64,000 nucleotides of DNA, taken from the NCBI GenBank assembly GCA_021768085.1, contig JAETOJ010000013.1:2448-66447 (forward strand), in the 5' to 3' direction. The translations under genes and the position numbers were made by a program. This document shows positions 18,042 to 33,690 of this stretch, piece after piece. Positions within the stretch are counted from its first letter, which is position 1. The number at the start of each line of letters is the position of its first letter. The notes beneath the pieces were generated by a model, which saw only the letters and a list, made by a program, of their open reading frames with translations, did not search any database and was not told where the DNA came from. The stretch is from Bacillota bacterium (GTDB lineage: Bacteria > Bacillota > Clostridia > Oscillospirales > Oscillospiraceae).

Positions 18042-18114
18042 TGTCTGCCATCCTCCTTAAATCTCTTAAATCTGCATGTAGAGGCGCATGCCGCGCCCGT
18101 TTGGATTTTACCGC

Positions 18115-19134: not shown

Positions 19135-19253
19135 AATAAAGACTCCTTTCAATTTTGAGGACTACTGGTGATCCGCTTCGTTGGAACCTGCCCCTATAGT
19201 CAAGGCACTTCAAAAGAGGCGACATACCTCTTGCATTTCTTCAAATGCGTTGG

Positions 19254-20225: not shown

Positions 20226-20256
20226 GGGTATCCTCTCCTTTGCGCCGGGTTGGGCC

Positions 20257-20913
20257 TCAGCGGCCCCGCCAGTTTACCATCTTGGAGATGTCGTCAGGTC
20301 GGCCCGCTGCCATGATGTGGGTGTCGGCGGCAAAGATGAAATCGGGAGCGATGGGCAGGATGGCCCCGTCCTCCTTGCGGCCGATGACGTTCACGTTCCA
20401 CTTGCGGCGGATGTCCAGATCGATGAGGGTGAGCCCCGCCCAGTGATCAGGCACGTCCAGCTCAAAGATAGCATACCCCGGAGCCAGCTCCACATACTCC
20501 AGGGCCCCGTTCACGCTGAAGCGCATGGCGGTGCGCTGGGCCATGTCCCGCTCGGGGAACACCACCTCGTCCGCGCCGATCTTCAGCAGCAGCCGGGCGT
20601 GAAGATCTCGGTCGGCCTTGGCCACCACCATGGGGGCCCCCAGCTCCTTGAGTAGGGAGGTGATCTCCAAGGAGGACTGGAAGTTCTCGCTGATGCACAC
20701 GAAGCAGAAGTCGAAGCCGTCCACCCCTAAAGAGGCCAGCACCTCCTCGTCCATGCAGTCGCCCACCTTGGCCTGGGTGACGTGTGGGGCGATGTGGCTG
20801 ACGGCCTCCTCGCTGCTGTCAAGCACCATCACCTCGTTGCCCTGATCCATGAGCCGCAGGGCCAGGTTGGTGCCGAAGCGGCCCAGGCCGATCACCAGGA
20901 ATGTGGCGGCCAT
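20257..20913 (-). CDS. ktrA: Ktr/Trk potassium uptake regulatory (RCK) subunit
   Basis: VIGLGRFG NAD-binding motif; LLKIGADEVVFPERDM. Confidence 0.9.
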   Translation of the reverse strand: MAATFLVIGLGRFGTNLALRLMDQGNEVMVLDSSEEAVSHIAPHVTQAKVGDCMDEEVLASLGVDGFDFCFVCISENFQSSLEITSLLKELGAPMVVAKADRDLHARLLLKIGADEVVFPERDMAQRTAMRFSVNGALEYVELAPGYAIFELDVPDHWAGLTLIDLDIRRKWNVNVIGRKEDGAILPIAPDFIFAADTHIMAAGRPDDISKMVNWRGR

Positions 20914-20951
20914 TCTGATCACACCTTTCCATTTTTAGTATAACTGCGCCG

Positions 20952-22289
20952 TCACCCGATGGTGATGCGCTCTATGGGGTCCTTGACCCGGGGGGGCAGG
21001 CGCTCCGCCAGGGCCATCATCATGGTGAGGCTGCCGATCCGCCCGCAGTACATCATCACCAGGATCAGCACCCGGTTGAGGGGGGACAGGGCCCGGGTGA
21101 TGCCGGTAGACAGCCCCACGGTGCTCATGGCGGAGAACACCTCGAACAGGGCGTCCTGGAGGGGGAAGGGCTGGGTGGCCAGCAGGGCGAAGCCCCCCGC
21201 CATGGCCAGGGTCAGGTAGAGGGTAACCCCCGCCGCTGAGCGGTGGATCTGGCCCTCGTCCAGCCGGCGGTTGAAGGCTCCCACCTCCCGCCTGCCCTGG
21301 ATATAGGCCCACAGGGTGAGCAGGCAGACGGCCACGGTGGTGACCTTGACGCCCCCGCCGGTGGAGCCGGGGCCCGCCCCGATGAACATGAGCACGATGG
21401 TGAGCAGCCCCCCCGCGCTGGTGAGGGAGGCCAGATCCACGGTGTTGAACCCCGCCGTCCGGGGGGACACCGCCTGGAACAGGGAGGCCAGGGCCTGCTC
21501 CCCTGGGGCCATGCCGGCCAGCAGATTGTCCCGCTCCGCCAGCCAGAACAGCACCGCGCCCCCCAGGGTGAGAATCAGGGTGGCGGACAGCATGATCTTG
21601 GCGTGGAGGGAATACCGGCGCAGGCGCAGGCCCTTCTCCCACACCTCCCGCCACACCAGAAAGCCCAGCCCGCCCAGCAGAACCAGGGCGCACACGGTGA
21701 GGTTCACCAGGGGGTCGTCGGCGTAGTAGGTGAGGGAGCTATAGGGTTCCCGGAAGCCCATCAGGTCGAAACCCGCGTTGCAGAAGGCGGACACGCTGTG
21801 GAACACCGCGTACCACAGCCCCCGGCCCAGGCCCAGCTCAGGCACGAAGCGAACGGCCAGCAGGGCCGCCCCGGCGCACTCGATGACGGCGGTGCCGCAT
21901 AGGATATAGCGCAGGAGGATATACACATCGCTGAGCCGCTCGGCGCTGACGCTCTCCAGCATGAGATCCCGCTGGCGCAGGCTGATCTTCCGGCCCAACA
22001 GCATGGAGGCCATCAGCACCATGGTCATATAGCCCAGCCCCCCCACCTGGATGAGCAGCAGCAGGATGAGCTGACCCAAGCCGTTGAACTGGGTCCAGGT
22101 GTCCGCCGCCACCAGGCCGGTGACGCAGGTGGCGGAGGTGGAGGTGAACAGGCAGTCCAAAAAGGGGAGGGGGCGGCCTGTCCGGTTGGCAAAGGGCAGG
22201 GACAGCAGCACCGCGCCGGCCAGGATAATGCCCAGAAAACCCACGGCCAGAATACGGCCAGGGGTGAGCTTGACGGGTTTCTTCTTCAC
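20952..22289 (-). CDS. ktrB: Ktr/Trk potassium uptake membrane subunit
   Basis: SATCVTGL, SAFCNAGF, PRTAGFN, SAMSTVGLSTG and MYCGRIG pore motifs. Confidence 0.92.
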   Translation of the reverse strand: MKKKPVKLTPGRILAVGFLGIILAGAVLLSLPFANRTGRPLPFLDCLFTSTSATCVTGLVAADTWTQFNGLGQLILLLLIQVGGLGYMTMVLMASMLLGRKISLRQRDLMLESVSAERLSDVYILLRYILCGTAVIECAGAALLAVRFVPELGLGRGLWYAVFHSVSAFCNAGFDLMGFREPYSSLTYYADDPLVNLTVCALVLLGGLGFLVWREVWEKGLRLRRYSLHAKIMLSATLILTLGGAVLFWLAERDNLLAGMAPGEQALASLFQAVSPRTAGFNTVDLASLTSAGGLLTIVLMFIGAGPGSTGGGVKVTTVAVCLLTLWAYIQGRREVGAFNRRLDEGQIHRSAAGVTLYLTLAMAGGFALLATQPFPLQDALFEVFSAMSTVGLSTGITRALSPLNRVLILVMMYCGRIGSLTMMMALAERLPPRVKDPIERITIG

Positions 22290-22522
22290 GGGCGGCGGCC
22301 CCCTTTTCCTGGAAGGTTTATGTTATATTATACCTGCCTGGAGGATAGTTTGCAAGGGGAAAGGCATCCCCTCCGCGGATCTCCTCTCCGGGCTCCGCGA
22401 AACGACAAATTTCTTGCGTGAAAAGTGAAAGACAGGGGGTGCGGGACAGAGATAAGGTATGCTATAATAATATGATCAATCAGGAACACTTCCGCGGAGA
22501 GAACGGGAGAGGGGGACTTTGG

Positions 22523-24550
22523 ATGGGCTTGATGGACTACAGTCTGCTGGCGTGGGAAGGGATACGGTTTCTCACGTTCCTGCTGGTGTGCGGGCTGCTG
22601 ATGGAGGATCGCGTTCCCCGCCGGATCGCCTGGGTGGCAAAGGTGGGCTTCCTGGTGGCGGAGGTGGTGGTTCAGGCTGGAGTGCTCCTGCTGGGGGGAA
22701 GCTATGTCCTGATGCTCTCCCTGCTGGCGGCGACGGCCTATGTTCCTGCCATCGTCTACGTCCACATCCTCTCTAAAAACGGATTCATCCAGACCTGTAC
22801 GGTGTGGATGGCGGGGCTGTTGACGGCCCTTACCCTGCGCTGCCTGTACCAGGTGACGGCCGTGGCGGCCGGCTGGCTGGAGGAGGGGCCATGGCGGGTG
22901 CTGTTGCTGCTGGGCACGCCGCTGCCTGCGGCGGCGGTGCTGACGGTGCTGGCCGGATTCCTGCGCCGGCCGTTCCAAGCCTGCCTGCGGGAATACTCCG
23001 GAGGCTGGCTGCCGCTGCTATTTCCCACGTCCATCGTGTTCCTGCTGCTTTCCCACATCGGGAACAACACGGCGGATCCGGGGACGGTGGTGCTGATCCT
23101 CCTGGCCACCCTGTCCATGCTGCTGGTGGTGAGCCGGCTGATCCTGCTGTCCGCGTCCATCGCCCGGACAGAGGAGGCCGATCGGGCGGCGGCGCAGCAG
23201 CTGGCCATCCAGCGCCAGGATTACGAGGCCCTTCAGAAAAAGTTGGAGCTGGGCCGGGCCTACCGCCACGATATGCGCCACCACCTGAGCACGCTGGACA
23301 GCCTGCTCCAGCAGGGGGAGACGGACAGCGCGCGGCAGTACATCGGCCGGCTGGCGGGCCAGCTCACCGCCGTGGAGGGGGAGACCTGGTGCGGCAACCC
23401 GGCGGTGAACGCGGTGCTGGCCGCCCAGATCAGCCGGGCCAGGGAGTGCGGCTGCACCGTAGAGGCGGACGTGCGTATTCCGGATGAGCTCCCCTTTAAT
23501 GAGGCGGATCTGTGCGTGATTTTCGCCAACGCCTTGGAAAACGCCGTCCACGCCTGCCAGGCCATCCCCGGGGGAGGGGAGCGCCGGATCCGGCTGAGCG
23601 CCCGGCTCAATGACAATCGGAGGCTCACCATCGCCGTGGACAACTCCTGCCCCACGCCAGTGGAGCTGGACGGGGAGGGTATGCCCACCGCGCCCCGGGA
23701 GAAGGGCCACGGCTACGGCCTGCGCAACGTCCAGGCGGTGGTGCGGAGATACAACGGCCTGCTCCAGTGCGAATGGGCCGAAGGGGAGTTCCGCCTCCAT
23801 GTGGTGCTGTTCGACTCGGTGGAGCGCAGAAGCGCCCACAGACGCAGGGCCGTCTGGCCTGCGGTGGCGCTGACGGCGCTGTTTCTGGGGTGCTTCACGG
23901 CCAACAGCCTGTCCGAGACGGTGCGGGTGGCCCGGGAGATGCAGGCCGCCTCTGTGGTGGACGGGGCGGTGTGGCTGCTGGGGGCTCACAGCTTGTCAGG
24001 AAGCGGGGAGGAGCCCGGGGGGGACGGGACGCCCGGCGTCCCGGAGCTGGAAAAACTGGCGTGGGACTCTTTTTTGCAGTACGTATCCCGAACCTACGGC
24101 ATCTATACGGACATGGATGTGGGGTATACTGTGGTGAGGGACGACGCCGCCCTGCTGGTGGTGCGGTTCGACGGGGTGGTGAACCGGGGCAGCTCCGGCC
24201 AGTTCAACCGGTTCCTCAACTATGACAAGAGGAAGAACCGGGCGCTGTCGCTGTCCGATCTGCTGAGCGAGGGCTATGTGGAGGCCATCAGTGAGGAGAT
24301 CCTGCGGCAGATGATCGACCGGCAGGCCAAGGGGGAGGGGGACTATTACGCTCCCGGCGGGATTTGGCGGGAGGACGAGTGGTTCCAGACCATCGCCCCG
24401 GATCAGAATTTTTACATCAACGGGGACAGCCAGCTGGTGATCGCTTTCGACGAGTGCCAGGTGGCGCCGGGGAGCATGGGCGCGCCGGAATTTATCATCC
24501 CCGCTCAGGTGCTGGAAGGCCTTCTTGTCCAGCCGTCTATTCTGGATTAA
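22523..24550 (+). CDS. AgrC/VirS-like GHKL sensor histidine kinase with C-terminal TM helix and RsiV/DUF3298-like domain
   Basis: Multi-TM N-terminus; H-box YRHDMRHHL; N-box NALENAVHAC; G-box GHGYGLRNV; then a TM helix and WFQTIAPDQNFYINGDSQLVIAFDECQVAPGSMGAPEFIIP (DUF3298-like). Confidence 0.8.
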   Translation: MGLMDYSLLAWEGIRFLTFLLVCGLLMEDRVPRRIAWVAKVGFLVAEVVVQAGVLLLGGSYVLMLSLLAATAYVPAIVYVHILSKNGFIQTCTVWMAGLLTALTLRCLYQVTAVAAGWLEEGPWRVLLLLGTPLPAAAVLTVLAGFLRRPFQACLREYSGGWLPLLFPTSIVFLLLSHIGNNTADPGTVVLILLATLSMLLVVSRLILLSASIARTEEADRAAAQQLAIQRQDYEALQKKLELGRAYRHDMRHHLSTLDSLLQQGETDSARQYIGRLAGQLTAVEGETWCGNPAVNAVLAAQISRARECGCTVEADVRIPDELPFNEADLCVIFANALENAVHACQAIPGGGERRIRLSARLNDNRRLTIAVDNSCPTPVELDGEGMPTAPREKGHGYGLRNVQAVVRRYNGLLQCEWAEGEFRLHVVLFDSVERRSAHRRRAVWPAVALTALFLGCFTANSLSETVRVAREMQAASVVDGAVWLLGAHSLSGSGEEPGGDGTPGVPELEKLAWDSFLQYVSRTYGIYTDMDVGYTVVRDDAALLVVRFDGVVNRGSSGQFNRFLNYDKRKNRALSLSDLLSEGYVEAISEEILRQMIDRQAKGEGDYYAPGGIWREDEWFQTIAPDQNFYINGDSQLVIAFDECQVAPGSMGAPEFIIPAQVLEGLLVQPSILD

Positions 24551-24563
24551 GGAGGAAATCCCA

Positions 24564-25280
24564 TTGCTAAAGCTGTGTATCTGTGACGACGACCCGGGGG
24601 ATTTGGAGCGGCTGGAGACCTTCACCGGCGAGTTCTTCCGCAGCCGCCCCGATGTGCCCGCCACGGTGGAGACCTTCCGCTCGCCCTATGATCTGCTGGA
24701 GCGGCTGGAGGAAAGGGGCGGATTCGACCTCTATCTGCTGGACATCCTCATGCCCCATATGTCCGGGCTGGAGCTGGCCCGGAAGATCCGGGAGCGGGGG
24801 GAGACCGCCCAGATCCTGTTCCTCACCTCGTCCCGGGAGTTCGCCCTGGACGCCTTTTCCGTCAACGCTGCGGGCTACCTGCTCAAGCCGGTGGAGCGGG
24901 ACGCCTTCTGCAAGGCCATCCTGGCGGCGGTACAGGCCCTTACCCCGGCGGACGATCTGCATCTGCTGTTGAAAACCAGGGAGGGCATCCGGAAGATCCG
25001 CCTGCGGGAGCTGGTGTTGGTGGAGAGCTTTGACCACAGCCGGGTGTGCACTCTGTCCAACGGCATGGTGCTGGAAACCCCGGCCACCCTCACCTCCCTG
25101 CTGGAGCGGCTGGAGGGGGATGCGCGGTTCTTTTCCCCCCACCGGGCCTATATTGTCAACCTGGAATTCGTCAACGGGCTGGCGGGCAGCGAGCTGCTGC
25201 TGTTTAACGGGCGACGGCTGCCTGTGTCCCGAAAACTGGCGTCTCAGCTGAAAAAGGCCTACATGAGGTACGCGTTTTAG
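24564..25280 (+). CDS. LytTR-family response regulator
   Basis: ICDDD, LLDILMPHMSG, LLKP receiver motifs; FFSPHRAYIVNL LytTR domain; TTG start after GGAGG. Confidence 0.93.
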   Translation: MLKLCICDDDPGDLERLETFTGEFFRSRPDVPATVETFRSPYDLLERLEERGGFDLYLLDILMPHMSGLELARKIRERGETAQILFLTSSREFALDAFSVNAAGYLLKPVERDAFCKAILAAVQALTPADDLHLLLKTREGIRKIRLRELVLVESFDHSRVCTLSNGMVLETPATLTSLLERLEGDARFFSPHRAYIVNLEFVNGLAGSELLLFNGRRLPVSRKLASQLKKAYMRYAF

Positions 25281-25433
25281 ACAAGGCGCCCGAGGGATGA
25301 TTGCTCCCCGGGCGCCCCGGTTGCTTTCCACGCAGAAAATCAGGCATTTCAAGAAAAAATAAACACAAGGGTCTGGAAATATGATACAATGCGTGGTACA
25401 ATCTGGCTGTGTGAACTGCCAAAAAGATGGGCT

Positions 25434-25736
25434 TCATCGCGAGGGGGATTGTGAATTGTGCCCCAACTTGTCCACCAGGGCGATGACCAGGGCGGCGGAG
25501 CTGTCATCCAGGGCGGACAGATCCACATACCTGGGCGCGTCCACGCACACCAGATAGTCCACCGTCACCCCCAGCACCCGGGACAGACGGATCAGCACTT
25601 CCAGGGAGGGTGCCTTGCTGGCGGTCTCATAGGCGCTGATCATCCCCTTGGTGACCCCCACTCGATGGGCCAGCTGCTCCTGGGTCAGGTGCTTGCCTGC
25701 CCGAAGCTGGCGAAGCTTTTCGCTGCAATCGATCAT
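25434..25736 (-). CDS. XRE-family HTH transcriptional regulator
   Basis: LRQLRAGKHLTQEQLAHRVGVTKGMISAYETASKAPS; AGGAGG RBS. Confidence 0.9.
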   Translation of the reverse strand: MIDCSEKLRQLRAGKHLTQEQLAHRVGVTKGMISAYETASKAPSLEVLIRLSRVLGVTVDYLVCVDAPRYVDLSALDDSSAALVIALVDKLGHNSQSPSR

Positions 25737-25811
25737 GTAGTATCCCCTCCTTTCCGCTATCAGTGTAACAAAAAGAAGTTTTCCCATAGTGTACTTGGGT
25801 AATACTACCGG

Positions 25812-25840
25812 TTGACTTTCCGCCTTTCCTATAGTATTAT
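25812..25840 (+). promoter_or_regulatory. SigA-type promoter facing the pilus operon, overlapped by an 8-bp inverted repeat
   Basis: TTGACT-17 bp-TATTAT; IR arms taatacta (25800-25807) and tagtatta (25832-25839). Confidence 0.55.
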
Positions 25841-25947
25841 TTAATTTCATGGAAGCTATGAGCTTGCAGGCGCAAGGCGGACACAGAGGAGGCCGGCAGG
25901 CTGTGAAATCCTCCTTGATGCGTTTGGCACTTTGCGCAAAAAGGGGA

Positions 25948-25976
25948 TTGTCAAAAAGCATAAGCTGGTGTATGAT
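25948..25976 (+). promoter_or_regulatory. Second SigA-type promoter upstream of the giant pilin gene
   Basis: TTGTCA-17 bp-TATGAT, about 80 nt before the ATG. Confidence 0.6.
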
Positions 25977-26055
25977 AACCTAACGGAAGTAAATGAACGT
26001 TTACGCCCCCGTTTTTCAGGTTCAAGCCCGTGCCGTTATAGTAAGGAGCGTCGCT

Positions 26056-29000
26056 ATGAAGTTCAAAGCAAGCAAAAAACGGAACAACGGATTCACCTTG
26101 GTAGAGATGTTGGCGGTGACGGCCATTGTGGCCATCCTGCTGGCGATAGGGATAGTGGCGGTGGTGTACTATGCCCGCTGGCTCCACATCACCGAGCTGG
26201 ACAATACCGCCCGGGAGATCTACCTGGCTGCGGAGAACCGGGCGGTGCTGCTGTCCGCCGGCGGACGGCTGGAGGAGCAGGTGAAGGCGGCGGCGGGCGG
26301 TGCGGAGCAGACGGTGACGCCCCCGGACAAGGACAAGAGTGCCACCCCCCTGGCGGCGGGCGGCGGCGCGGCGAACGCCGAGTACCGCTACATATACTAC
26401 AGCGGTAGCGCCAACCAGCTGGAGGATCTGCTGCCCGTGGGGACGATTGACCCGGCGCTGCGTGAGGGCTATTTCTATATTGTGTATGAGGTGAACATGG
26501 GGAGCGTCACCGACGTGTTTTACGCCGAGGATGGCAACCTGTTGGACAATAATAATGATTTCCAGGACTTTTATGAGACGTGGCGGGGTTCCTCCCGGCA
26601 GAAGCGGCTGGATGAGAAGCGGATGATCGGCTACTACGGCGGCGAGGCGGCGGGAAATGATAAGACCGACGCGCTGAGGGCGCCCATCCTCCGGGTGTTC
26701 AACGAGGAGGAGCTGTGGGTGGAGCTCTCCTATGAGGTACCGACGGGGGAGACGCGGACGCCGCAGGTGCGGCTGTACCACGTCGAGGGCGAGAATAAGA
26801 AGTACGAGATAGATCTCAGCGATCTGAGTGGGTGGACAAAGACAACAACAACGGGCATAAACGGCACAACGTATACTTATACCCGGGTGCTGGATTCGCT
26901 GGAAACGGGCAAGCAGTTTCAAAATCTGTATCAGAATAATAGTGTTGTTACAGGCGAAAAGCCGGCCTCTTTCGGGTGGGACTTTACTGTGGAGGCATGG
27001 ACCGAGGGCGGTACTGTGCGCAGCACCTCCGCGTACGACACGGGGAACAGCCTGTTTGCCAGCAGGAAGGAGGAAGGCGATGGAGACGGCCCCGTTGCCT
27101 ACATCGGGAACCTGCGGCACTTGCAAAACCTGGACGAGGAGTTTTCCAAGGTAGAGGACAAGACGGCGGCGGTGCAGATCGCCGATATTGAGCAGAGCTC
27201 CAGCGAGCTTGATTATTATCGAAACTACGAGTTTAAGCCCATCAAAAATTCTGAACTGAAGTCCTATTGTGGTTCCTACGGGGCGAATGAGGCTGACTCT
27301 GTCGTGCACTTTATCAAGGGGCTGACGGTGACTGCTGCCAGCGTGACCGGAAAGCCCGCCGGTGGCCTGTTTGCCACTGTGCAAGGATCGGAGGGGGCAC
27401 CCTGGAAATTTAAAGATGTCCGCCTGATCAATACCCGGGTAAAGATGATAGAAGAAGGCACGGGACAAAGCTTGCCCGCTGGTGCCTTGGTGGGACAGGC
27501 GGGAAATGCCAGCTTTGACGGTTGCTGGGTCTACTGGGAGGGCGAGGCGCTGGAGACGCTGAAGGCTTCCATAATACCGGAGACTGGGTTGGAAGATATG
27601 CACTATCAGATCACGGGCAGCAGCGCTGGCGGGCTGGTGGGTGAGCTGAGCGAAGGAACGATCAAGGACTGCTTTGCGGCCACGCTGGTGAAGGGGACAA
27701 GTGTCGCGGGCGGGCTGGTGGGAATGGCAAATGACACTGTGATCGTGCAGAACTCCTATGCGGACTGCTATCTTACCGCATCCAATGCCGCCGCTGGTTT
27801 GATTGGGACTACCAATGGGACGGTCGATTTTACGAATGTTTACGCCGCCGGATTTGTTGATAATGCAAAGAAAAATGCGGCCGGGCTGTGCTGCAAGAGA
27901 GAAGGCGCGAGCGTTACGGTGACGGCGCAAAACGCCTATTCCGCCATGCACTATAAGAACACAGGGGAAAATGTTATCATTGTACCGCTGGCAGAAGATT
28001 TGGATGTGACCGAAGGTGATAATTCCCATTGCTATTTCCTGCAATACAGTAACGGAACGGGCGGGAGTGCCTACGAAGATATGATCAAAGTGGAGTTCCT
28101 TACGAAGGTAAACAACGGGGGGAACAACTTTGAGTGGAAGTACAGTGACAGCTACCCCTACAGCCTGCTGATGAATTTGACCGCGTATCCCTTCCCGGGG
28201 CTGGTGGGCCTGCCCCACTATGGGGACTGGAACGCTGAATTTGTCAAGCCTGCCCTGGTGTACTTCGAGAAGTACAAGCCAATCGAGGGCGGGACGGATC
28301 AATACGGCTTTTATGTCGATGGCGTGGATACTTTGAAGAAAGATACGGAGATAGAGGGGAGCTACACGGTTCCTCTGGATGGGTATGCCGTGGCGTTCCG
28401 GGAAGAGGATCTTGGGAGCAATAACGCAAATCTTACGATTACATTTACTTACTGGGATGAGGCTGAGAAAGTGCAGACGATATCCCAGGACTATAAGAAG
28501 ACCGGAGGCGGAAATCCCCATGATAATTTTCTGAAGGTAGAACACGATGGAAAAACCTATTACTTGGCAATCCTGCCGGATGGGTTGATCAACCGTGATT
28601 ACGCTTCGAAGAATTTCTATCAGCGCCTGAGCTTCCAGGTGAAGAACGACCCTACAACCACGTGGGCTGCCTACTGCCCCCACTTCGCCAAGACGGCAAG
28701 GCCCATTTCCGAGGGAATGACAGACCAGGAGCTCGCCAACATGGCGAAGCAGGCGCGCGGCTATGTGCGTACACCCCGGCACCTGCGGGCGCTGAGCCAG
28801 TTTGAGACGTATGCCTACGGGGGGAAGATCGAGGAGATCAACGGGAAAAATACCTGGGTCAGCCACACATATACTTATATCCAGGAGCTGGATCTGGATT
28901 ATACGGCCTATGAAGGGTATAATTGGGCTGGTAGTTGGGATAAAGACCTGTATACCCAGGAGCCCATCGGCAAATTCGGCGCGCCCTTCAACGGCAATTA

Positions 29001-32000
29001 CAACGGCGGGTGCCATACCATTCAAAATGTGAAATTCAAGCTACCCGAGGAGAGTGCCCGGCAGTATGCCGGTCTGTTCGGCCTGTCCGCCGGTAATCTG
29101 CAAAATATCGTCTACCTCGTGAATCCGAAGGAGACTATCTCCGTGGCGAGAACGGGTGTGACGCTGTACCTGGGCGCGCTGGCTGGAGGAAGCAGCGGTA
29201 CCATTACCAACTGCGCCGTGGCCGGGGCCGATCTCCAGGGCACGATCTACAACAAGGCCGAGGCATATGTGGGCGGCCTGGTGGGGATCAACAATGGCGC
29301 CATCCAAAACTGCGCTGCCGAGGTGGCCAGCCTGAAGGCCCGCGGGGAAGATTTCTCCACGGCCCGTGCTGGGGGCCTGGTGGGGCGGAACAATGGAACG
29401 ATCAGAACGTCCTACGCCGTGGGCCACATCAGCGGCGAGGCGCAAAATGACTCCTCGGCCCGGGTGTGCGGCTTTGTGGGCTATAACACCGGAACCATTT
29501 CATATAGCTACACAGCGGCCTGGCTGGAGTCCAGCGGAGCCGGGGTGGAGACCTTTGGCTTCTGTGGCGAGCGACTGGGCAGCCAGGATCATACCTACTT
29601 TGTGGACAGCGGCAACTTCACTTACCGGGAGGAGCCCTATAACGGCACCTATTCCACCGGAACGGAGCGGGCGACCCCTATTTCCTACCGGGTGATGACC
29701 GGCGGCGAGCTGGCCGCAGGCGAGAAAAAGCCGGAGTTGGTGGACAATGGCATGAATCAGGGGGGAACAGCCAAGAAGGGTAACGAAGATACACTCCTGG
29801 CGGATCAGTTCCCCCTGCCCACCGGCGTGACGAAGAACGGCGAGCCCGTCCACTATGGTCAGTGGCCCGAGGTGCTGGATCTGGGCGATATGGGGATGTA
29901 CTACTGGGAGAGGATGGAGTTGCCCGGGGCTAACGGAGTCCGAGAAGTCTACGGCGTCAGTATGCTGCGCGTGGATGCTGAAAAAAAGGAAGTGACTGAC
30001 GTCTCCACCCTGGCCACCGCTCATAGCGATGGCGGTGTGGTGGTAGATTATGGGTATGGGTTCTATTGCAGTAAGGGTATAGCAGATGAGGTGAACGTTA
30101 ATACCGAGGGAGTTCGTTACACTCAGGACGGAGTTACAGCGTTTGAGACGTATTACGGAAATCCAATGTATGATCTGGTTTGGTGGATGACCCCTCTGAG
30201 TCAGCTGTCTGATAAAGTAATGGATGAGACGGTAAATGTGAGCTTGAATCAACTAATGGAGCAGTACGAGTTTTTTTCCTACCATAGCTTTGTACCCAAC
30301 TCTGACCCAAATAAACGAGAAGAATCTTATATCCGAGATGGATTGTATCCATTTGCCAAAGAGGATCAGGGCGCTAATGTAGTGGTCAATATGTCGCTGA
30401 GTGGAGACGAGGAAGATCCCGACGGCGTGAAAGTCATGTTTAAATTCAATCCCCACTTTGCGAATGCGTTGTCTGTAGAAGCAGTTGGTTCGGGGAGCGA
30501 CAAGGGTGAGAGCATTGCTGATGATTGGAATGTCAATTCATTGGATAAGGAACCGGGGACGGAGGGCAACCCCTACGAAGTCCGCGCCATGGGCCAGCTG
30601 TCCGCCATCAACTGGAACAGCGAGAATCTGGATACCAAGACGGTGATTGATGGGGAGAGTAACAATACACAATTCCCCTATTTGTCCTATGGAGGACATA
30701 CCAGAGACTATGTTTGGGTGCAGACCCACGATATCCATGGCAACAGCAAAACATATACCCCCATCGCGGAGTACTATGACTACATAAGTCAACCAATTGG
30801 CAGATTGGCGGGTTGGTTCGGTGGATCTTTCAATGGGGACGACTATGTGATCGAAAACGTCAATATCCAGGGCCAGACGTCCTCCGTGGCGGGGTTGTTT
30901 GGGGTGGTGTTCAATGGCTCTTTGAGGAACATTGTGCTCTATAGCTCTGACGGGGCGGGAACAATTTCCAACACCGATAAGAGTGGAGTCAATCACACAA
31001 AGAGTCTGTGGTATTCCATGGGAACTCTGGCCGGCATTGCGGCGGCCAAAGAGAATGCGGATGGATACAAAGGTAACGTGGTGGAAAATTGCTCTGCTTC
31101 GGGATATACCATTCAGTACGGAACCTACAACAAAGTGGATAATGGAGCCGCAAATGATGGTAAAGGCGGCGGCAGTACGATAGGCGGGCTGCTGGGCTCA
31201 TCAGATATGGCGTTGAAAAACTGCACCGCTGCGACCAAAATCCAGATTTTTAAGGGGAAAGCCACGAAAACATTAGGAAATGACAATCTCCGCGCGGGCG
31301 GTCTGACCGGTGTGTGCCAAAACGCAATCACGAACTGCTATGTCGGAGGAAGCATTAAAGTCGAGAATGGCGTGATTGTAAAAAGTGGAAATGCCCTTTA
31401 TTTGGGGGGAATTGTTGGAGGCGGTTATTTCAAGCCTTTATCTGTAAAAGGAGCAAACAAAGGTAAGGATATTGAAATTGGGGGTGGCGGAAGCGGAGTA
31501 TCAGGAAGCGCAACGCTGACTAACTGCTACTCATATGTGGAACTGCCCAGTAAGAGTACGACGGTTTATACGACGCAAGGAGGTTTTGTGCCAAGCGAGG
31601 ACCCTGCACAGGGCGCGAATGAGGATAAAATCAAGGCATTGTATGCGATCGGCGGGCAGGGGGACGGCGACACCGACTATAGTGCCACCAACTGCTATTA
31701 TCTGGAAAGCGAGGTTATGAAGAACAACCTTAATGGGTTCAGCGGAGTGAATGCGACGGATATTCCGTATGTTGGCCGAACTGTGACATTGAGTGACGGA
31801 AGTACTCGAACGCTAACCCCAGACAATGTAGGAGATATTTATGATGTCAGTCCTGCCGTATACAGGAACTTTTATTCTAATGTAAGGGTTAATACTGGTG
31901 GCACTGAGATAACTATCAGATGTCGTATTCAAAATAGTAACGTTGTCGGCGAACCGTTATTTGTGTTTGTGGATGAGAACAATGAGTACTTTGACAATGG

Positions 32001-33690
32001 GAGCCAGGCTCCAGGGAGCGTAAGGGCCAGGTTTTTAGGGTGGATAAAAACCCCAATATCGGGTGGGGGTGGCAGCTGCGAAGTGACCAATGACCCCACA
32101 ATGCTTTATTCCGACCTCATACCCCTTACCTATAAGCAGCTGGCGGGGACGGATCAGATTGAAAAAAATGGAGAGCCGCAAGACATCTATGACTTGCTTC
32201 CCGACTTCGACCCCGTCACCGACACCGAGGACGGCTTCGCGGTTCCCGGCAAGTACAGCTACAACACGAAGATGAGGCCGGAGCTACAGGGTCTGCGCTA
32301 TCCCTTCCCTACCATCCTGACCCGGGACGCGGATGGCAAGAGGGTGCACGTCCACTACGGCGACTGGCCGCTGAACGGCATCGAGCGCGTGACCGGCGGC
32401 GCACCCATCCGTCTGGATCTGCTGAAGGTGGGCGGTGAAGTCAAGACGGAGACACTGACGCTGAGCGCAGAGGTGCCCGAAGGCGGTACGTGGAAGATCG
32501 AGAAGAAGACGCCGGCAGAGGGGGAGCAGTCCCAAAAGTCCATCATTGAGGCTTATTTGGGCGATGTGGAGGGGAATACCACGGCCTCCGATAACAATAG
32601 AAGCTGCAATCTGACAGTAAAGGGGCTTGAGCTGGGCCAGACGGAAGTGACGGTGGTGTACGAGAAGGGCGATGTGGAATATGGCAGGGTGACGATCACC
32701 GTCAATGTGACCGCGACGCTGCGGGTGAGGTCCGAGTTTTCGCCCATCTACGTGTTCCCCGGAGCCAAGAACATCGTGGTGCCGCTGGTGCTGTGCGATG
32801 ACGAGTGGAAGGAACTGAGCCAGGAAAAGCAGGCGGACGTGGAAATCGACCTGCGTAAGAGCAGATGTAGATGGCCCGAAGATCTGCTGAGCAATGCGCA
32901 GCTGGCGGGGCAGAACGGGGACTATTATCTGCTCCTGGAGGCAGTGGACAACCCGGAGGAGGAGAAGTTCAATGAACCACAGGCCATAACGGTCAGTGTG
33001 CCATACACCTACAACGGGGCGGAAATCGAGGCTGAGCACAGTATGCTGTCGGTAGAGATGAGGCCCCTACCGAAGCCAGAGATCAACGAAGAAACGGGTG
33101 TTACCCTGATTACATTCCCGGAGATTCCCCTCGGGAAGGACCAGGATGAGAGTGAGATTACGGTCGTGACCACTGTGAAACAGGCTGAGGTGGATGATGT
33201 TAAGAAACCGGCTTCCGGGAGTTCTGATGATCAGACGACGGATCCTGACACCACAGAGGAGCCAGAAGGCAGGGTAACATATGAAGATAATGTTGTATCG
33301 CTGGAGAATTACGCCCCAGGCAGCGAGGTAACGCTGACGCTGACGCTGGAGCTGAGCCGGAGCAACGCCACAGAGGGTGAGCAGTCCATGACCCAAACTG
33401 TCCCAATGACTGCGATCATTTTGGCGCTGTCTGAGAGCCCGGAGGATGGTGATCAGGGTGCTGAGAACCCCGGGGGCGGGGAAACAAATTCGGAGGCGAA
33501 GCAGGCGGAAAGTCAGGAGACCGTGCAGGCCGCCGAGCCGGAGCAGATTCAAGATCCGGAGCTCCCTGTGGGCGAGAGAGCGAAGCTGCCGGAGGGGCCG
33601 GATCCTGCCCTCCCGGTGGAGGAAAAAACAGACCCCGTCCCGGAGAAAGACGCCGGGACGGGGGAGGATGGGACGGAGCCGGAGCAGTAG
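26056..33690 (+). CDS. Giant (2544 aa) type IV pilin-like protein with GLUG-type repeat modules; putative pilus adhesin
   Basis: Class III signal MKFKASKKRNNG/FTLVEMLAVTAIVAILLAIGIV with Glu+5; repeated GGLVG/GLFG/GGLLG motifs; acidic Pro-rich tail; AAGGAG RBS before ATG 26056. Confidence 0.88.
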   Translation: MKFKASKKRNNGFTLVEMLAVTAIVAILLAIGIVAVVYYARWLHITELDNTAREIYLAAENRAVLLSAGGRLEEQVKAAAGGAEQTVTPPDKDKSATPLAAGGGAANAEYRYIYYSGSANQLEDLLPVGTIDPALREGYFYIVYEVNMGSVTDVFYAEDGNLLDNNNDFQDFYETWRGSSRQKRLDEKRMIGYYGGEAAGNDKTDALRAPILRVFNEEELWVELSYEVPTGETRTPQVRLYHVEGENKKYEIDLSDLSGWTKTTTTGINGTTYTYTRVLDSLETGKQFQNLYQNNSVVTGEKPASFGWDFTVEAWTEGGTVRSTSAYDTGNSLFASRKEEGDGDGPVAYIGNLRHLQNLDEEFSKVEDKTAAVQIADIEQSSSELDYYRNYEFKPIKNSELKSYCGSYGANEADSVVHFIKGLTVTAASVTGKPAGGLFATVQGSEGAPWKFKDVRLINTRVKMIEEGTGQSLPAGALVGQAGNASFDGCWVYWEGEALETLKASIIPETGLEDMHYQITGSSAGGLVGELSEGTIKDCFAATLVKGTSVAGGLVGMANDTVIVQNSYADCYLTASNAAAGLIGTTNGTVDFTNVYAAGFVDNAKKNAAGLCCKREGASVTVTAQNAYSAMHYKNTGENVIIVPLAEDLDVTEGDNSHCYFLQYSNGTGGSAYEDMIKVEFLTKVNNGGNNFEWKYSDSYPYSLLMNLTAYPFPGLVGLPHYGDWNAEFVKPALVYFEKYKPIEGGTDQYGFYVDGVDTLKKDTEIEGSYTVPLDGYAVAFREEDLGSNNANLTITFTYWDEAEKVQTISQDYKKTGGGNPHDNFLKVEHDGKTYYLAILPDGLINRDYASKNFYQRLSFQVKNDPTTTWAAYCPHFAKTARPISEGMTDQELANMAKQARGYVRTPRHLRALSQFETYAYGGKIEEINGKNTWVSHTYTYIQELDLDYTAYEGYNWAGSWDKDLYTQEPIGKFGAPFNGNYNGGCHTIQNVKFKLPEESARQYAGLFGLSAGNLQNIVYLVNPKETISVARTGVTLYLGALAGGSSGTITNCAVAGADLQGTIYNKAEAYVGGLVGINNGAIQNCAAEVASLKARGEDFSTARAGGLVGRNNGTIRTSYAVGHISGEAQNDSSARVCGFVGYNTGTISYSYTAAWLESSGAGVETFGFCGERLGSQDHTYFVDSGNFTYREEPYNGTYSTGTERATPISYRVMTGGELAAGEKKPELVDNGMNQGGTAKKGNEDTLLADQFPLPTGVTKNGEPVHYGQWPEVLDLGDMGMYYWERMELPGANGVREVYGVSMLRVDAEKKEVTDVSTLATAHSDGGVVVDYGYGFYCSKGIADEVNVNTEGVRYTQDGVTAFETYYGNPMYDLVWWMTPLSQLSDKVMDETVNVSLNQLMEQYEFFSYHSFVPNSDPNKREESYIRDGLYPFAKEDQGANVVVNMSLSGDEEDPDGVKVMFKFNPHFANALSVEAVGSGSDKGESIADDWNVNSLDKEPGTEGNPYEVRAMGQLSAINWNSENLDTKTVIDGESNNTQFPYLSYGGHTRDYVWVQTHDIHGNSKTYTPIAEYYDYISQPIGRLAGWFGGSFNGDDYVIENVNIQGQTSSVAGLFGVVFNGSLRNIVLYSSDGAGTISNTDKSGVNHTKSLWYSMGTLAGIAAAKENADGYKGNVVENCSASGYTIQYGTYNKVDNGAANDGKGGGSTIGGLLGSSDMALKNCTAATKIQIFKGKATKTLGNDNLRAGGLTGVCQNAITNCYVGGSIKVENGVIVKSGNALYLGGIVGGGYFKPLSVKGANKGKDIEIGGGGSGVSGSATLTNCYSYVELPSKSTTVYTTQGGFVPSEDPAQGANEDKIKALYAIGGQGDGDTDYSATNCYYLESEVMKNNLNGFSGVNATDIPYVGRTVTLSDGSTRTLTPDNVGDIYDVSPAVYRNFYSNVRVNTGGTEITIRCRIQNSNVVGEPLFVFVDENNEYFDNGSQAPGSVRARFLGWIKTPISGGGGSCEVTNDPTMLYSDLIPLTYKQLAGTDQIEKNGEPQDIYDLLPDFDPVTDTEDGFAVPGKYSYNTKMRPELQGLRYPFPTILTRDADGKRVHVHYGDWPLNGIERVTGGAPIRLDLLKVGGEVKTETLTLSAEVPEGGTWKIEKKTPAEGEQSQKSIIEAYLGDVEGNTTASDNNRSCNLTVKGLELGQTEVTVVYEKGDVEYGRVTITVNVTATLRVRSEFSPIYVFPGAKNIVVPLVLCDDEWKELSQEKQADVEIDLRKSRCRWPEDLLSNAQLAGQNGDYYLLLEAVDNPEEEKFNEPQAITVSVPYTYNGAEIEAEHSMLSVEMRPLPKPEINEETGVTLITFPEIPLGKDQDESEITVVTTVKQAEVDDVKKPASGSSDDQTTDPDTTEEPEGRVTYEDNVVSLENYAPGSEVTLTLTLELSRSNATEGEQSMTQTVPMTAIILALSESPEDGDQGAENPGGGETNSEAKQAESQETVQAAEPEQIQDPELPVGERAKLPEGPDPALPVEEKTDPVPEKDAGTGEDGTEPEQ

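What the first reader, a model, noticed from the sequence alone, without database searches (positions are those of the whole stretch)
22523..24550. Histidine kinase with an RsiV/DUF3298-like extracytoplasmic domain after its catalytic domain
Seen: one ORF with an AgrC-like membrane domain, HisKA and GHKL, then a further TM helix (AVWPAVALTALFLGCF) and a domain ending NFYIN...LVIAFDECQVAPGSMGAPEFIIP. Established: RsiV is the lysozyme-binding anti-sigma factor of SigV, and kinase sensors normally lie N-terminal to the catalytic core. Inference: a two-sensor kinase that has captured an envelope-stress or lysozyme receptor and signals through the adjacent LytTR regulator. The RsiV-like part appears shortened.
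Basis: partly seen in the sequence, partly recalled or inferred. Interest (0 to 1): 0.65.

Follow-up and report, generated by a model that had tools for sequence, protein, structure and literature searches.

The report
Sensor kinase carrying RsiV receptor module
A gut Clostridia two-component sensor kinase really does carry, after its catalytic domain, an extra membrane helix and an outside-the-cell domain derived from RsiV, the bacterial lysozyme receptor; this is a conserved and apparently undescribed way of wiring a host-defence receptor to a phosphorelay, although this copy has lost RsiV's cleavage switch.

Summary
One intact ORF (22523-24550, 675 aa) has seven N-terminal TM helices, an AgrC-class kinase core (H249; HATPase_c_5 326-429), an eighth TM helix (440-472) and a C-terminal DUF3298 domain (578-660). 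A LytTR regulator follows 14 nt downstream.

The fusion is not an artefact. At least 135 clusters at 32-93% identity share the architecture.

The C-terminal module is specifically RsiV-like. The best PDB match by sequence (E = 8.5e-21) and by fold (E = 2.6e-13) is RsiV bound to lysozyme. All kinase-fused domains form one clade nested among true RsiV proteins.

Typical members keep the whole RsiV cassette: TM helix, the mapped AQA site-1 motif, the protective amphipathic helices and the ectodomain. They conserve RsiV's best-conserved lysozyme-contact residues as often as true RsiVs do.

The window's lineage is a divergent variant. It lacks the AxA/helix switch and the first strand, and has Y255C and E256Q. 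Its globular domain is still under purifying selection (dN/dS = 0.19).

A conserved 9-bp direct-repeat pair upstream suggests autoregulation. Giant surface adhesin or pilin genes lie beside the system in 7 of 11 lineages.

The ligand and the signalling route are untested. I found no paper describing the fusion.

The parts
22396..22423 (+). Paired 9-bp direct repeat CGCGAAACG-N12-CGTGAAAAG (21-bp period), a putative LytTR-regulator operator about 37 bp upstream of the -10 element
   Evidence: Conserved in four syntenic loci and perfect in L010. The same pair lies upstream of kinases only 41% identical, in L015 and L016. It is the only match in the window (0.08 expected) and the only exact match in the genome.
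22460..22468 (+). Extended -10 promoter element TGCTATAAT of the kinase-regulator operon
   Evidence: Sequence read. It is invariant in the four-locus alignment, and similar TATGCTAT(A/G) elements lie upstream of distant relatives.
22523..23152 (+). Kinase residues 1-210: seven-helix membrane domain, N-terminus outside, very short outside loops
   Evidence: Hydropathy and the positive-inside rule. AlphaFold helices 3-26, 33-56, 61-83, 88-117, 123-157, 163-182 and 186 onward. Invariant Y73 and P75.
23153..23827 (+). Kinase residues 211-435: DHp helix hairpin with H-box YRHDMRHH (H249) and GHKL ATPase domain (N336/N340, GHGYG 395-399)
   Evidence: Pfam HATPase_c_5 at 62 bits. Invariant catalytic motifs across the family. 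The only PDB match is the AgrC kinase module 6e52, with the H-box aligned. dN/dS = 0.08.
23840..23938 (+). Kinase residues 440-472: eighth transmembrane helix, running inside to outside, preceded by ERRSAHRRR
   Evidence: It is homologous to the RsiV TM helix in typical members (RsiV profile from position 42). Constraint is relaxed in this lineage (dN/dS 0.55-1.0).
23939..24037 (+). Kinase residues 473-505: degenerate juxtamembrane segment and disordered linker. It occupies the place of the RsiV site-1 (AxA) motif, amphipathic helices and first beta-strand (WGDT), all of which are lost here.
   Evidence: Motif census of 135 members, alignments, pLDDT below 50 for residues 475-505, dN/dS 0.53-0.93.
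24038..24547 (+). Kinase residues 506-675: RsiV-like globular ectodomain (DUF4163-like part plus DUF3298)
   Evidence: Pfam DUF3298. 5jen_A at E = 8.5e-21. Foldseek 5jen at E = 2.6e-13, 33% identity. NCBIfam RsiV at 124 bits. dN/dS = 0.19.
24564..25280 (+). LytTR-family response regulator (238 aa, TTG start, RBS AAGGAGGA), 14 nt after the kinase stop codon
   Evidence: Pfam Response_reg + LytTR. Best NCBIfam matches are BtsR, LytR and AgrA, all below cut-off. Regulators next to relatives are the same length.
25308..25320 (+). Terminator-like hairpin after the regulator gene (CCGGGCGCCCCGG followed by a T-rich tail)
   Evidence: It is conserved in the syntenic loci.
25434..25736 (-). Small XRE-family regulator (100 aa from MIDCSEKL...), a conserved neighbour lying between the two-component system and the giant pilin gene
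   Evidence: Pfam HTH_3. Synteny in L009, L010 and L011. A homologue lies beside the system in L015.
26056..33690 (+). Giant GLUG-type type IV pilin gene (context only; a candidate output of the system)
Evidence: N-terminal GFTLVEML motif. A homologous 2,201-aa N_methyl + Glug pilin lies beside the 41%-identical kinase in L015.

Best explanation
The gene encodes an intact AgrC-class (HATPase_c_5, LytTR-partnered) membrane histidine kinase. One ancestral fusion gave it the membrane anchor and extracytoplasmic receptor of the anti-sigma factor RsiV at its C-terminus.

Shown here: the topology puts the kinase core in the cytoplasm and the RsiV-like domain outside the cell. The domain has the RsiV fold and keeps S169, P259, G260 and an acidic residue at 225 (RsiV numbering). 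The kinase and the LytTR regulator form one operon behind a conserved pair of 9-bp boxes.

Inferred: the ectodomain is the system's ligand-binding sensor. Its ligand is most likely a lysozyme-type muramidase or another cell-wall-active protein (about 40% for lysozyme itself in typical members, lower for this copy). Ligand occupancy changes kinase output, the phosphorylated LytTR regulator activates its own operon through the CGYGAAAYG-N12-CGTGAAAYG site, and the system probably also influences the adjacent giant-adhesin or pilus genes.

Typical family members retain the RsiV AQA site-1 motif and protective helices, so ligand-gated shedding by signal peptidase is plausible for them. In the window's lineage that switch and the first beta-strand are lost and the linker evolves almost neutrally, while the globular domain stays under purifying selection. 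This copy therefore most likely works as a flexibly tethered binding domain that acts on the 7-TM bundle or TM8 by contact, not by regulated proteolysis.
For: Real and conserved fusion: 120 listed clusters, all with PF14501 + PF11738; 46 representative clusters at E below 1e-30, nearly all 590-880 aa with the match at the C-terminus; short hits are fragments.

RsiV specificity: 5jen_A E = 8.5e-21 against 4.5e-6 for generic DUF3298; Foldseek top hit 5jen, 33-34% identity, TM-score 0.63-0.66; NCBIfam RsiV equivalog: 124 bits here, 168 bits over profile positions 42-281 in P0077; AQA|L aligns with RsiV A64-Q65-A66|M67.

Single origin: (all 54 kinase-fused rows in one clade, SH-aLRT 99).

Topology: plus Pro/Thr/Ser-rich linkers in the long variants.

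Contact residues: (Y255 95%, E256 79%, P259 95%, G260 98% and S169 98% in the kinase clade, equal to or above true RsiV), using Table 2 of PMC5014341.

Selection: (globular domain 0.19, kinase core 0.08, juxtamembrane segment 0.62).

Intact catalytic motifs.

Operon and operator.

Adhesin association.
Against: No binding, topology or phosphorylation experiment exists.

This copy has C at RsiV position 255 and Q at 256. These are two of the most conserved lysozyme contacts, and Y255 touches the lysozyme catalytic residue E35. It also lacks strand 1, which carries contacts E88 and S93.

Y261 is Ser in 86% of the kinase clade, although 25% of true RsiV-sized proteins also have Ser there.

No lysozyme-resistance genes (deacetylase, OatA, dlt) lie directly beside the system in any of 11 contexts.

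The box pair occurs nowhere else in this genome, including the pilin promoter, so control of the pilus locus is only correlative.

How a domain on a disordered linker would signal to the kinase is unexplained. The full-length model has pTM 0.48, so domain packing is not predicted with confidence.
Confidence: 0.55

Rival explanations
1. The ectodomain is a sensor, but its ligand is not lysozyme. After the fusion the RsiV scaffold was retuned to another extracellular cue, such as muropeptides or wall polymers, a bacterial or phage muramidase, or a host or microbial protein. Signalling is otherwise as in the best explanation.
For: Positions that are variable or different in RsiV are fixed to new residues in the kinase clade: T165 to N (96%), A167 to G (100%), S168 to G (87%), H139 to Y (94%), Y261 to S (86%). 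The RsiV authors showed that not all DUF4163/DUF3298 proteins bind lysozyme (Rv1980c; PMC5014341). No lysozyme-resistance genes are adjacent in 11 contexts. The stem branch of the kinase clade is long (0.68).
Against: The residues that true RsiVs conserve best, and that contact the lysozyme active-site cleft, are kept at the same frequencies in the kinase clade. S169, which contacts the catalytic residue D52, is nearly invariant. RsiV is far closer than any generic DUF3298 protein.
Confidence: 0.3
2. The kinase, including this copy, is controlled by RsiV-style regulated proteolysis. Ligand binding exposes a site next to TM8, signal peptidase sheds the ectodomain, and a site-2 protease then cuts TM8, irreversibly switching the kinase.
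For: Of 135 members, 101 keep the RsiV-type juxtamembrane helix motif, and 73 of those have a small-x-small triplet (AQA, ADA, VQA) in the position of the mapped RsiV A64-Q65-A66 site. In RsiV this region's only known role is gated site-1 cleavage (PMC6066255). Five of 22 members weakly match DUF4179.
Against: The window's lineage lacks the AxA motif, the P-x-L-G helix and the WGDT strand, and this segment evolves with dN/dS 0.5-1.0. The mechanism therefore cannot be assumed for this protein. No cleavage of any member has been observed, and the consequence of cutting a kinase's C-terminal helix is unknown.
Confidence: 0.1
3. In this lineage the RsiV-like module is a vestige. The kinase senses through its 7-TM domain alone, and the C-terminal part is only a tolerated appendage.
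For: The switch region and first strand are lost, there are changes at positions 255 and 256, and the linker is disordered and evolving nearly neutrally.
Against: The globular domain has dN/dS = 0.19 against the closest relative and 0.39-0.43 at greater distance, similar to the 7-TM domain. The reading frame is intact in four diverged loci. The 7-TM domain has almost no extracellular surface to sense with.
Confidence: 0.1
4. The single ORF is an assembly or annotation artefact (a missed stop or frameshift) joining a kinase gene to a separate RsiV-like gene.
For: None found.
Against: The same continuous architecture is present in at least 135 clusters from independent assemblies down to 32% identity. 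It is intact in all loci fetched. The kinase-fused domains are monophyletic. No genome sampled has the two parts as neighbouring genes.
Confidence: 0.01

Closest known systems
RsiV, the anti-sigma-V factor and lysozyme receptor of Bacillus subtilis, Clostridioides difficile and Enterococcus faecalis (PDB 5JEN; PMC5014341, PMC6066255, PMC4183432)
   Same: The C-terminal module is homologous to the RsiV TM helix, juxtamembrane switch and DUF4163/DUF3298 ectodomain. RsiV is the best PDB hit by sequence and by fold. Typical family members align from RsiV residue 60 to 279, including the AQA site-1 triplet and the amphipathic-helix positions. The best-conserved lysozyme contacts (S169, Y255, E256, P259, G260) are retained in the family.
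   Different: The sigma-V-binding N-terminal domain is replaced by a complete 7-TM histidine kinase. The partner is a LytTR response regulator, not an ECF sigma factor. Scores stay below the RsiV equivalog cut-off. Several contact positions are refixed (N165, G167, G168, Y139, S261). The window's copy also lacks the site-1 motif, the helices and strand 1, and has C255 and Q256.
AgrC/AgrA-type (HPK10, HATPase_c_5 + LytTR) quorum-sensing two-component systems (AgrC kinase module, PDB 6E52)
   Same: It has a polytopic N-terminal membrane domain whose last helix continues into the DHp helix, an RHD-type H-box, a HATPase_c_5 ATPase domain, an adjacent LytTR regulator, and 9-bp direct-repeat boxes with a 12-bp spacer upstream of its own promoter.
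   Different: There are no agrB/agrD or other peptide-pheromone genes nearby. The outside loops are very short. An eighth TM helix and a folded extracytoplasmic domain follow the catalytic domain, an arrangement not described for AgrC-type kinases. Similarity to AgrC is weak (E = 0.006 in the PDB search, and no equivalog match for this protein).
Generic DUF3298 / DUF4163 (PdaC-type) proteins of unknown function (PDB 3CYG, 4E72, 3S5T)
   Same: They share the fold and match the Pfam DUF3298 model.
   Different: They are much more distant (19-21% identity, E of 1e-5 to 1e-9, against 33% and 1e-13 to 1e-21 for RsiV). They carry a GGAHG-type loop where RsiV and this family have Ser at the S169 position.

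Membership tests
RsiV anti-sigma-V factor (NCBIfam NF052658 equivalog) | Whole-protein score at or above the curated cut-off (250 bits) | tested here: not met
   P0001 scores 123.8 bits, P0077 168.1 bits and P0022 182.6 bits. Stand-alone 283-293-aa relatives score 275-293 bits.
RsiV anti-sigma-V factor (NCBIfam NF052658 equivalog) | N-terminal cytoplasmic sigma-V-binding domain and an adjacent sigV gene | tested here: not met
   Profile positions 1-41 are unmatched and replaced by the kinase. The neighbour is a LytTR regulator. The genome holds only this one DUF3298 gene.
RsiV anti-sigma-V factor (NCBIfam NF052658 equivalog) | Single TM helix followed by a signal-peptidase site-1 (A-x-A) motif and protective amphipathic helices (RsiV residues 64-86) | tested here: not met
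   Absent in the window's protein and in P0002-P0004. Present in typical family members: 101 of 135 have the helix motif, 73 of those also have small-x-small, and P0077 aligns AQA|L with A64-Q65-A66|M67.
RsiV anti-sigma-V factor (NCBIfam NF052658 equivalog) | Extracytoplasmic DUF4163 + DUF3298 domain with the RsiV fold | tested here: met
   5jen_A at E = 8.5e-21. Foldseek 5jen at E = 2.6e-13 with TM-score 0.63-0.66. The first strand of the DUF4163 part is missing in this copy.
RsiV anti-sigma-V factor (NCBIfam NF052658 equivalog) | High-affinity binding of C-type lysozyme through S169, Y255, P259 and Y261 | not testable with these tools
   By sequence only: S169, P259 and G260 are kept, while Y255 is C, E256 is Q and Y261 is S in this protein. 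A binding assay is needed.
AgrC-class (HPK10) histidine kinase with LytTR partner | HATPase_c_5 GHKL domain with intact N and G boxes | tested here: met
   Pfam PF14501 at 62.4 bits. N336, N340, H396, G397 and G399 are invariant.
AgrC-class (HPK10) histidine kinase with LytTR partner | DHp helix with phospho-acceptor His in an RHD-type H-box | tested here: met
   R248-H249-D250 is invariant and aligns with the FRHDY H-box of AgrC in 6e52. There is no match to Pfam HisKA.
AgrC-class (HPK10) histidine kinase with LytTR partner | Polytopic (6-7 TM) N-terminal membrane domain | tested here: met
   Seven helices by hydropathy and by AlphaFold, with positive-inside topology N-out, C-in.
AgrC-class (HPK10) histidine kinase with LytTR partner | Cognate LytTR response regulator in the same operon | tested here: met
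   The regulator is also present in L002, L007, L008, L009-L012 and L015-L018. It is absent next to L004 and L006.
AgrC-class (HPK10) histidine kinase with LytTR partner | Linked autoinducing-peptide genes (agrB/agrD or equivalent) | tested here: not met
   None in the window flanks or in the relatives' contexts. Only L018 has a C39-peptidase ABC exporter downstream.
DUF3298 (Pfam PF11738) | Score above the gathering threshold (24.1 bits) | tested here: met
   53.1 bits at residues 578-660. All 22 aligned members match.

The most novel reading that the evidence does not exclude
In typical members of this family, host lysozyme is read as a 'near the mucosa' cue by a kinase that is switched by regulated proteolysis. 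Lysozyme binds the RsiV-derived ectodomain and unmasks the conserved AQA site. Signal peptidase sheds the domain and a site-2 protease then cuts the eighth helix. The LytTR regulator in turn drives giant surface adhesins or type IV pili encoded next door. The window's lineage would be a derived form that kept the receptor and the pilus link but replaced proteolytic gating with reversible contact signalling.
Probability: 0.15. Interest if true: 0.85.

Novelty: new variant of a known kind. Interest (0 to 1): 0.62.

Why it matters
Sensor domains of histidine kinases almost always precede the catalytic core. Here a complete receptor cassette from a different signalling paradigm (ECF sigma/anti-sigma regulated proteolysis) is attached after it, across an extra membrane pass. 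If it is functional, three things follow. First, a receptor module can be moved between sigma-factor control and phosphorelay control. Second, it gives a candidate route by which abundant, uncultured gut Clostridia sense lysozyme or another wall-active host factor. Third, in typical members it raises the testable possibility that a two-component kinase is controlled by signal-peptidase cleavage.

The recurrent adjacency to giant adhesin and pilin genes suggests an output related to attachment. The family also offers a natural comparison between copies with the RsiV switch and copies, like this one, without it.

Tried and rejected
(1) Frameshift or missed-stop artefact: rejected on conservation.

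(2) The GTG start at 22418: rejected, because it lies upstream of the conserved promoter.

(3) RsiV-sized or odd-sized proteins inside the kinase clade as evidence of separate genes: rejected. They are N-truncated gene calls that still carry kinase-core sequence or linker. P0142 remains unresolved.

(4) Regulon search with the paired box. Only the operon's own promoter matches in the window and genome, and 1-mismatch hits equal the reversed-pattern control. No regulon could be defined here.

(6) The small conserved proteins that follow the regulator in other lineages (86-100 aa; the 236/241-aa lipoprotein; the 77-91-aa Cys-rich protein) have no counterpart in the window or its genome. They are not part of this locus.

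(7) G040 initially looked like an orphan kinase. That was an error of my ORF picker: the regulator is present with a TTG start.

(8) Literature searches for DUF3298 or RsiV together with histidine kinase or LytTR found no description of the fusion.

Full report
OBSERVATION

A longer GTG-initiated frame from 22418 exists, but the ATG at 22523 is the supported start. It follows an RBS and a conserved extended -10 element (TGCTATAAT, 22460-22468), and both lie downstream of the GTG.

Pfam places HATPase_c_5 at residues 326-429 (62 bits) and DUF3298 at 578-660 (53 bits against a gathering score of 24.1). There is no match to Pfam HisKA. The His domain is an AgrC-class H-box (YRHDMRHH, H249), and the only solved-structure match to the kinase core is the AgrC kinase module 6e52, with the H-box aligned.

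The next gene is a Response_reg + LytTR regulator. Its likely start is the TTG at 24564, behind the RBS AAGGAGGA and 14 nt after the kinase stop. This gives 238 aa, the same length as the regulators beside relatives.

IS THE FUSION REAL?

A search of 5.8 billion proteins returned 151 hits. All 120 listed (32-93% identity, 638-877 aa) carry PF14501 and PF11738 in one chain.

A search with the C-terminal 171 residues alone against 1.84 billion cluster representatives gave 46 hits at E below 1e-30. Nearly all are 590-880 aa with the match at their C-terminus. The short high-identity hits are truncated gene calls that still contain kinase-core or linker sequence.

Every locus I fetched has the uninterrupted frame.

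TOPOLOGY

Hydropathy and the positive-inside rule give seven N-terminal helices with the N-terminus outside. The Arg/Lys-rich loops (28-40 and 147-157) are cytoplasmic. The kinase core is cytoplasmic, followed by the cluster ERRSAHRRR and an eighth helix (about 440-472) that runs from inside to outside.

The AlphaFold model built from 46 homologues (mean pLDDT 79.8) shows the same layout. Helices span 3-26, 33-56, 61-83, 88-117, 123-157 and 163-182, and helix 186-263 runs continuously from TM7 into the DHp helix. The CA domain covers 293-430 and TM8 covers 440-472. A short helix (476-487) and a disordered stretch (488-505) precede a folded domain at 506-664.

The ~800-aa relatives differ only by a Pro/Thr/Ser-rich low-complexity insert within the C-terminal module. 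Such inserts are typical of exported segments in Gram-positive bacteria. The outside loops of the 7-TM domain are only about 3-10 residues long, so the C-terminal domain is the only sizeable extracytoplasmic part.

WHAT THE C-TERMINAL MODULE IS

By sequence, the best PDB match is RsiV in complex with lysozyme (5jen_A, E = 8.5e-21). The generic DUF3298 structures 3cyg, 3s5t and 4e72 match at 4.5e-6 or worse.

A model of residues 440-675 (mean pLDDT 81.7) finds 5jen first by Foldseek (E = 2.6e-13, 33-34% identity, about 180 aligned columns, TM-score 0.63-0.66), and then the same generic DUF3298 entries.

Results against NCBI's curated 'anti-sigma-V factor RsiV' equivalog (286 positions, cut-off 250 bits) were as follows:
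- The window's protein scores 124 bits over profile positions 137-283.
- A typical family member (P0077) scores 168 bits over positions 42-281. That covers the TM helix, the juxtamembrane region and the whole ectodomain.
- Stand-alone 283-293-aa relatives score 275-293 bits, so they are true RsiV.

A direct alignment of P0077 with the 5jen chain (E = 3.9e-30) places its A-Q-A|L on RsiV A64-Q65-A66|M67. That is the experimentally mapped signal-peptidase site (PMC6066255). Its I-P-A-L-G-P-A-I-R-V-V-D-L aligns with the protective amphipathic-helix region, I70 to F82.

A maximum-likelihood tree of 131 domains puts all 54 kinase-fused copies in one clade (SH-aLRT 99, stem length 0.68), nested among RsiV-sized proteins. 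The module was therefore captured once, from an RsiV-like ancestor. Everything came with it except the sigma-V-binding N-terminus.

LYSOZYME-CONTACT RESIDUES

I used Table 2 of PMC5014341 and compared 59 true RsiV-sized proteins with 148 kinase-fused ones. True RsiVs vary at many contact positions. The ones they conserve strongly are kept in the kinase clade at the same or higher frequency:
- Y255: 96% in true RsiV, 95% in the kinase clade.
- E256: 79% and 79%.
- P259: 96% and 95%.
- G260: 96% and 98%.
- Acidic residue at 225: 69% and 86%.
- S169 (contacts the lysozyme catalytic residue D52): 40% and 98%.
- Site-1 residues: A64 at 94% and 70%, A66 at 74% and 60%.

Other positions are refixed in the kinase clade: N165, G167, G168, Y139 and S261. 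Ser at 261 also occurs in 25% of true RsiVs.

Lysozyme binding is therefore plausible for the family, but it has not been shown.

THE WINDOW'S COPY IS A DIVERGENT VARIANT

In a census of 135 members, 128 have the WG-x-[ST] first strand and 101 have the juxtamembrane helix motif. Of those 101, 73 also have a small-x-small triplet just upstream. Only five members have neither the strand nor the helix motif: the window's protein, its three closest relatives (P0002-P0004) and P0125. The same lineage is the only one with Cys at the Y255 position, and it has Gln at the E256 position.

Codon-level comparison with three syntenic relatives shows that the module is not decaying as a whole. Against the closest relative, dN/dS is:
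- 0.19 for the globular domain;
- 0.22 for the 7-TM domain;
- 0.08 for the kinase core;
- 0.55 for TM8;
- 0.62 for the juxtamembrane segment and linker, rising to 0.8-1.0 at greater distances.

So the binding domain is maintained while the RsiV-type switch has been released from constraint. In this lineage RsiV-style gated cleavage is unlikely, and a tethered binding domain acting by contact is the more economical reading. This last step is inference.

OUTPUT SIDE

Footprinting of four syntenic loci reveals a conserved pair of 9-bp direct repeats with a 21-bp period. In the window it is CGCGAAACG-N12-CGTGAAAAG at 22396-22423, and in L010 the repeat is a perfect CGTGAAACG twice. It ends about 37 bp upstream of the -10 element. 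Nine-bp repeats with 12-bp spacers are the classic arrangement for LytTR regulators (my knowledge of AgrA- and ComE-type sites).

The same pair lies upstream of the kinase genes in L015 and L016, whose kinases are only about 41% identical to the window's. That is strong evidence for a conserved autoregulatory operator.

In the window and in its whole genome, this promoter is the only convincing occurrence.

In G040 (L012), two further pairs flank a 1,978-aa GLUG/Flg_new_2/SLH adhesin gene. One sits directly after the regulator's stop codon and terminator, in front of a TATGCTATGGG -10-like element that precedes the adhesin operon.

GENOMIC CONTEXT

In the window's lineage the order is TrkH (-), kinase and regulator (+), a small XRE regulator (-), then a giant GLUG-type type IV pilin (+). 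This order is conserved down to 57% kinase identity. In L015 a homologous XRE regulator and a homologous giant pilin (39% identity over about 1,900 aa) again lie beside the system, although rearranged.

Across 11 independent contexts, 7 have a secreted or surface protein of at least 1,276 aa within a few genes:
- two giant pilins (the window's lineage and L015);
- SLH/Flg_new_2 (L006);
- GLUG/SLH (L012);
- Cna_B/SpaA pilus (L007);
- Flg_new/YDG (L008);
- one unannotated protein with a signal peptide (L018).

In the window's genome only 8.8% of positions lie within 6 kb of any open frame of at least 1,250 aa. That gives P of about 1e-5 for 7 of 11, and 8e-3 even if the true rate were 25%.

There are caveats. 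I treat this as a real but correlative lead that the system's output concerns large adhesins or pili.

No lysozyme-resistance genes are directly adjacent in any context.

DISTRIBUTION

In species-representative genomes the fusion is rare and patchy. It occurs in 2-3 of 151 genomes of the same GTDB family and in 4 of 401 of the order, across three families. About 6% of genomes carry RsiV-sized genes. No sampled genome has both, and the two same-genus genomes lack it. The window's genome has no other DUF3298 gene (completeness 90.6%). Named relatives are annotated only as 'GHKL domain-containing protein' from Acutalibacteraceae or Oscillospiraceae MAGs.

KNOWN OR NEW?

Full-text searches for DUF3298 or RsiV together with histidine kinase or LytTR found no description of the fusion.

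Two earlier notes of this scan (e1-2077706 and e1-3700104) describe the same family in other genomes and read it the same way. They are AI notes, not independent evidence. I re-derived the core claims here and added the following:
- the single-origin tree;
- the contact-residue comparison with true RsiVs;
- the selection analysis showing that this lineage has lost the switch but kept the domain;
- the conserved operator;
- the adhesin association.

The system works partly like RsiV (receptor) and partly like AgrC/AgrA (transmitter). It is a full member only of the AgrC-class kinase group and of Pfam DUF3298. It fails the RsiV membership tests on score, on the N-terminal domain and on the sigV partner, and this copy also fails on the site-1 switch.

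VERDICT

This is a new variant of known kinds: a real, conserved and apparently undescribed kinase architecture. This particular copy is an intact but derived member. The ligand, the signalling route and the regulon remain untested.

Noticed in passing
L002:11299-11574, L007:10390-10650, L008:11571-11873: A conserved small cytoplasmic protein (86-100 aa, 46-53% identical, no Pfam match; MK..RKRK..SL.FEDAARFN..LDTN...) follows the LytTR regulator in three distant, long-linker members of the family. It is absent from the window and its genome.
   Followed up: partly
L002:11578-12288 and L017:9577-10302: A homologous lipoprotein of unknown function (236 and 241 aa, 63% identical, signal peptide plus Cys) lies downstream of the kinase-regulator pair in two long-linker lineages.
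   Followed up: partly
L012:7659-7889 (-) and L015:7550-7822 (-): A small Cys-rich protein (77-91 aa; ...SVWP.Q.CP.F...ECWFC..ADFH...; 56% identical over 54 aa) sits next to the system in two lineages. In G040 it lies between the box pair and the giant adhesin gene.
   Followed up: partly
window 25737-25860 (XRE/pilin divergent promoter region): A strongly conserved non-coding block across four loci contains CAGTGTAAC...N17...TAGTGTAC and a TTGACT-17-TATTAT promoter facing the giant pilin gene. It may be the XRE operator and the pilin promoter. It carries no LytTR-type box pair.
   Followed up: partly
L018:11149-18223: Downstream of one family member's kinase-regulator pair lies a bacteriocin/RiPP-like cluster: a C39-peptidase ABC exporter, a second ABC transporter, an ECF sigma factor, small ORFs and a radical SAM enzyme. 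This is the only context that resembles classical LytTR quorum-sensing loci.
   Followed up: no
L008:9436-10158: The LytTR regulator beside P0097 is called as two pieces (46 aa + 175 aa). The 46-aa piece matches the N-terminus of the window's regulator, so this is a probable frameshift or sequencing error in that contig.
   Followed up: partly
window 18088-29025, several frames: There are long antisense 'shadow' ORFs typical of high-GC DNA, for example the 1,024-aa frame at 25951-29025 (-) opposite the giant pilin gene and the 323-aa frame at 23018-23989 (-) opposite the kinase. They are not genes.
   Followed up: no
P0142 (284 aa): One RsiV-sized protein with an anti-sigma-like N-terminus (MSEAMQTRFLLFMSAVDDDLLEEAL) falls inside the kinase-fused clade on a long branch. 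It could be a secondary separation of the module or a misplacement.
   Followed up: no
G445, G470 and G154 (same genus g138): Within one genus, one species carries the kinase fusion (726-aa frame) and two carry RsiV-sized genes (294 and 302 aa). The two forms may be alternatives within closely related organisms.
   Followed up: no
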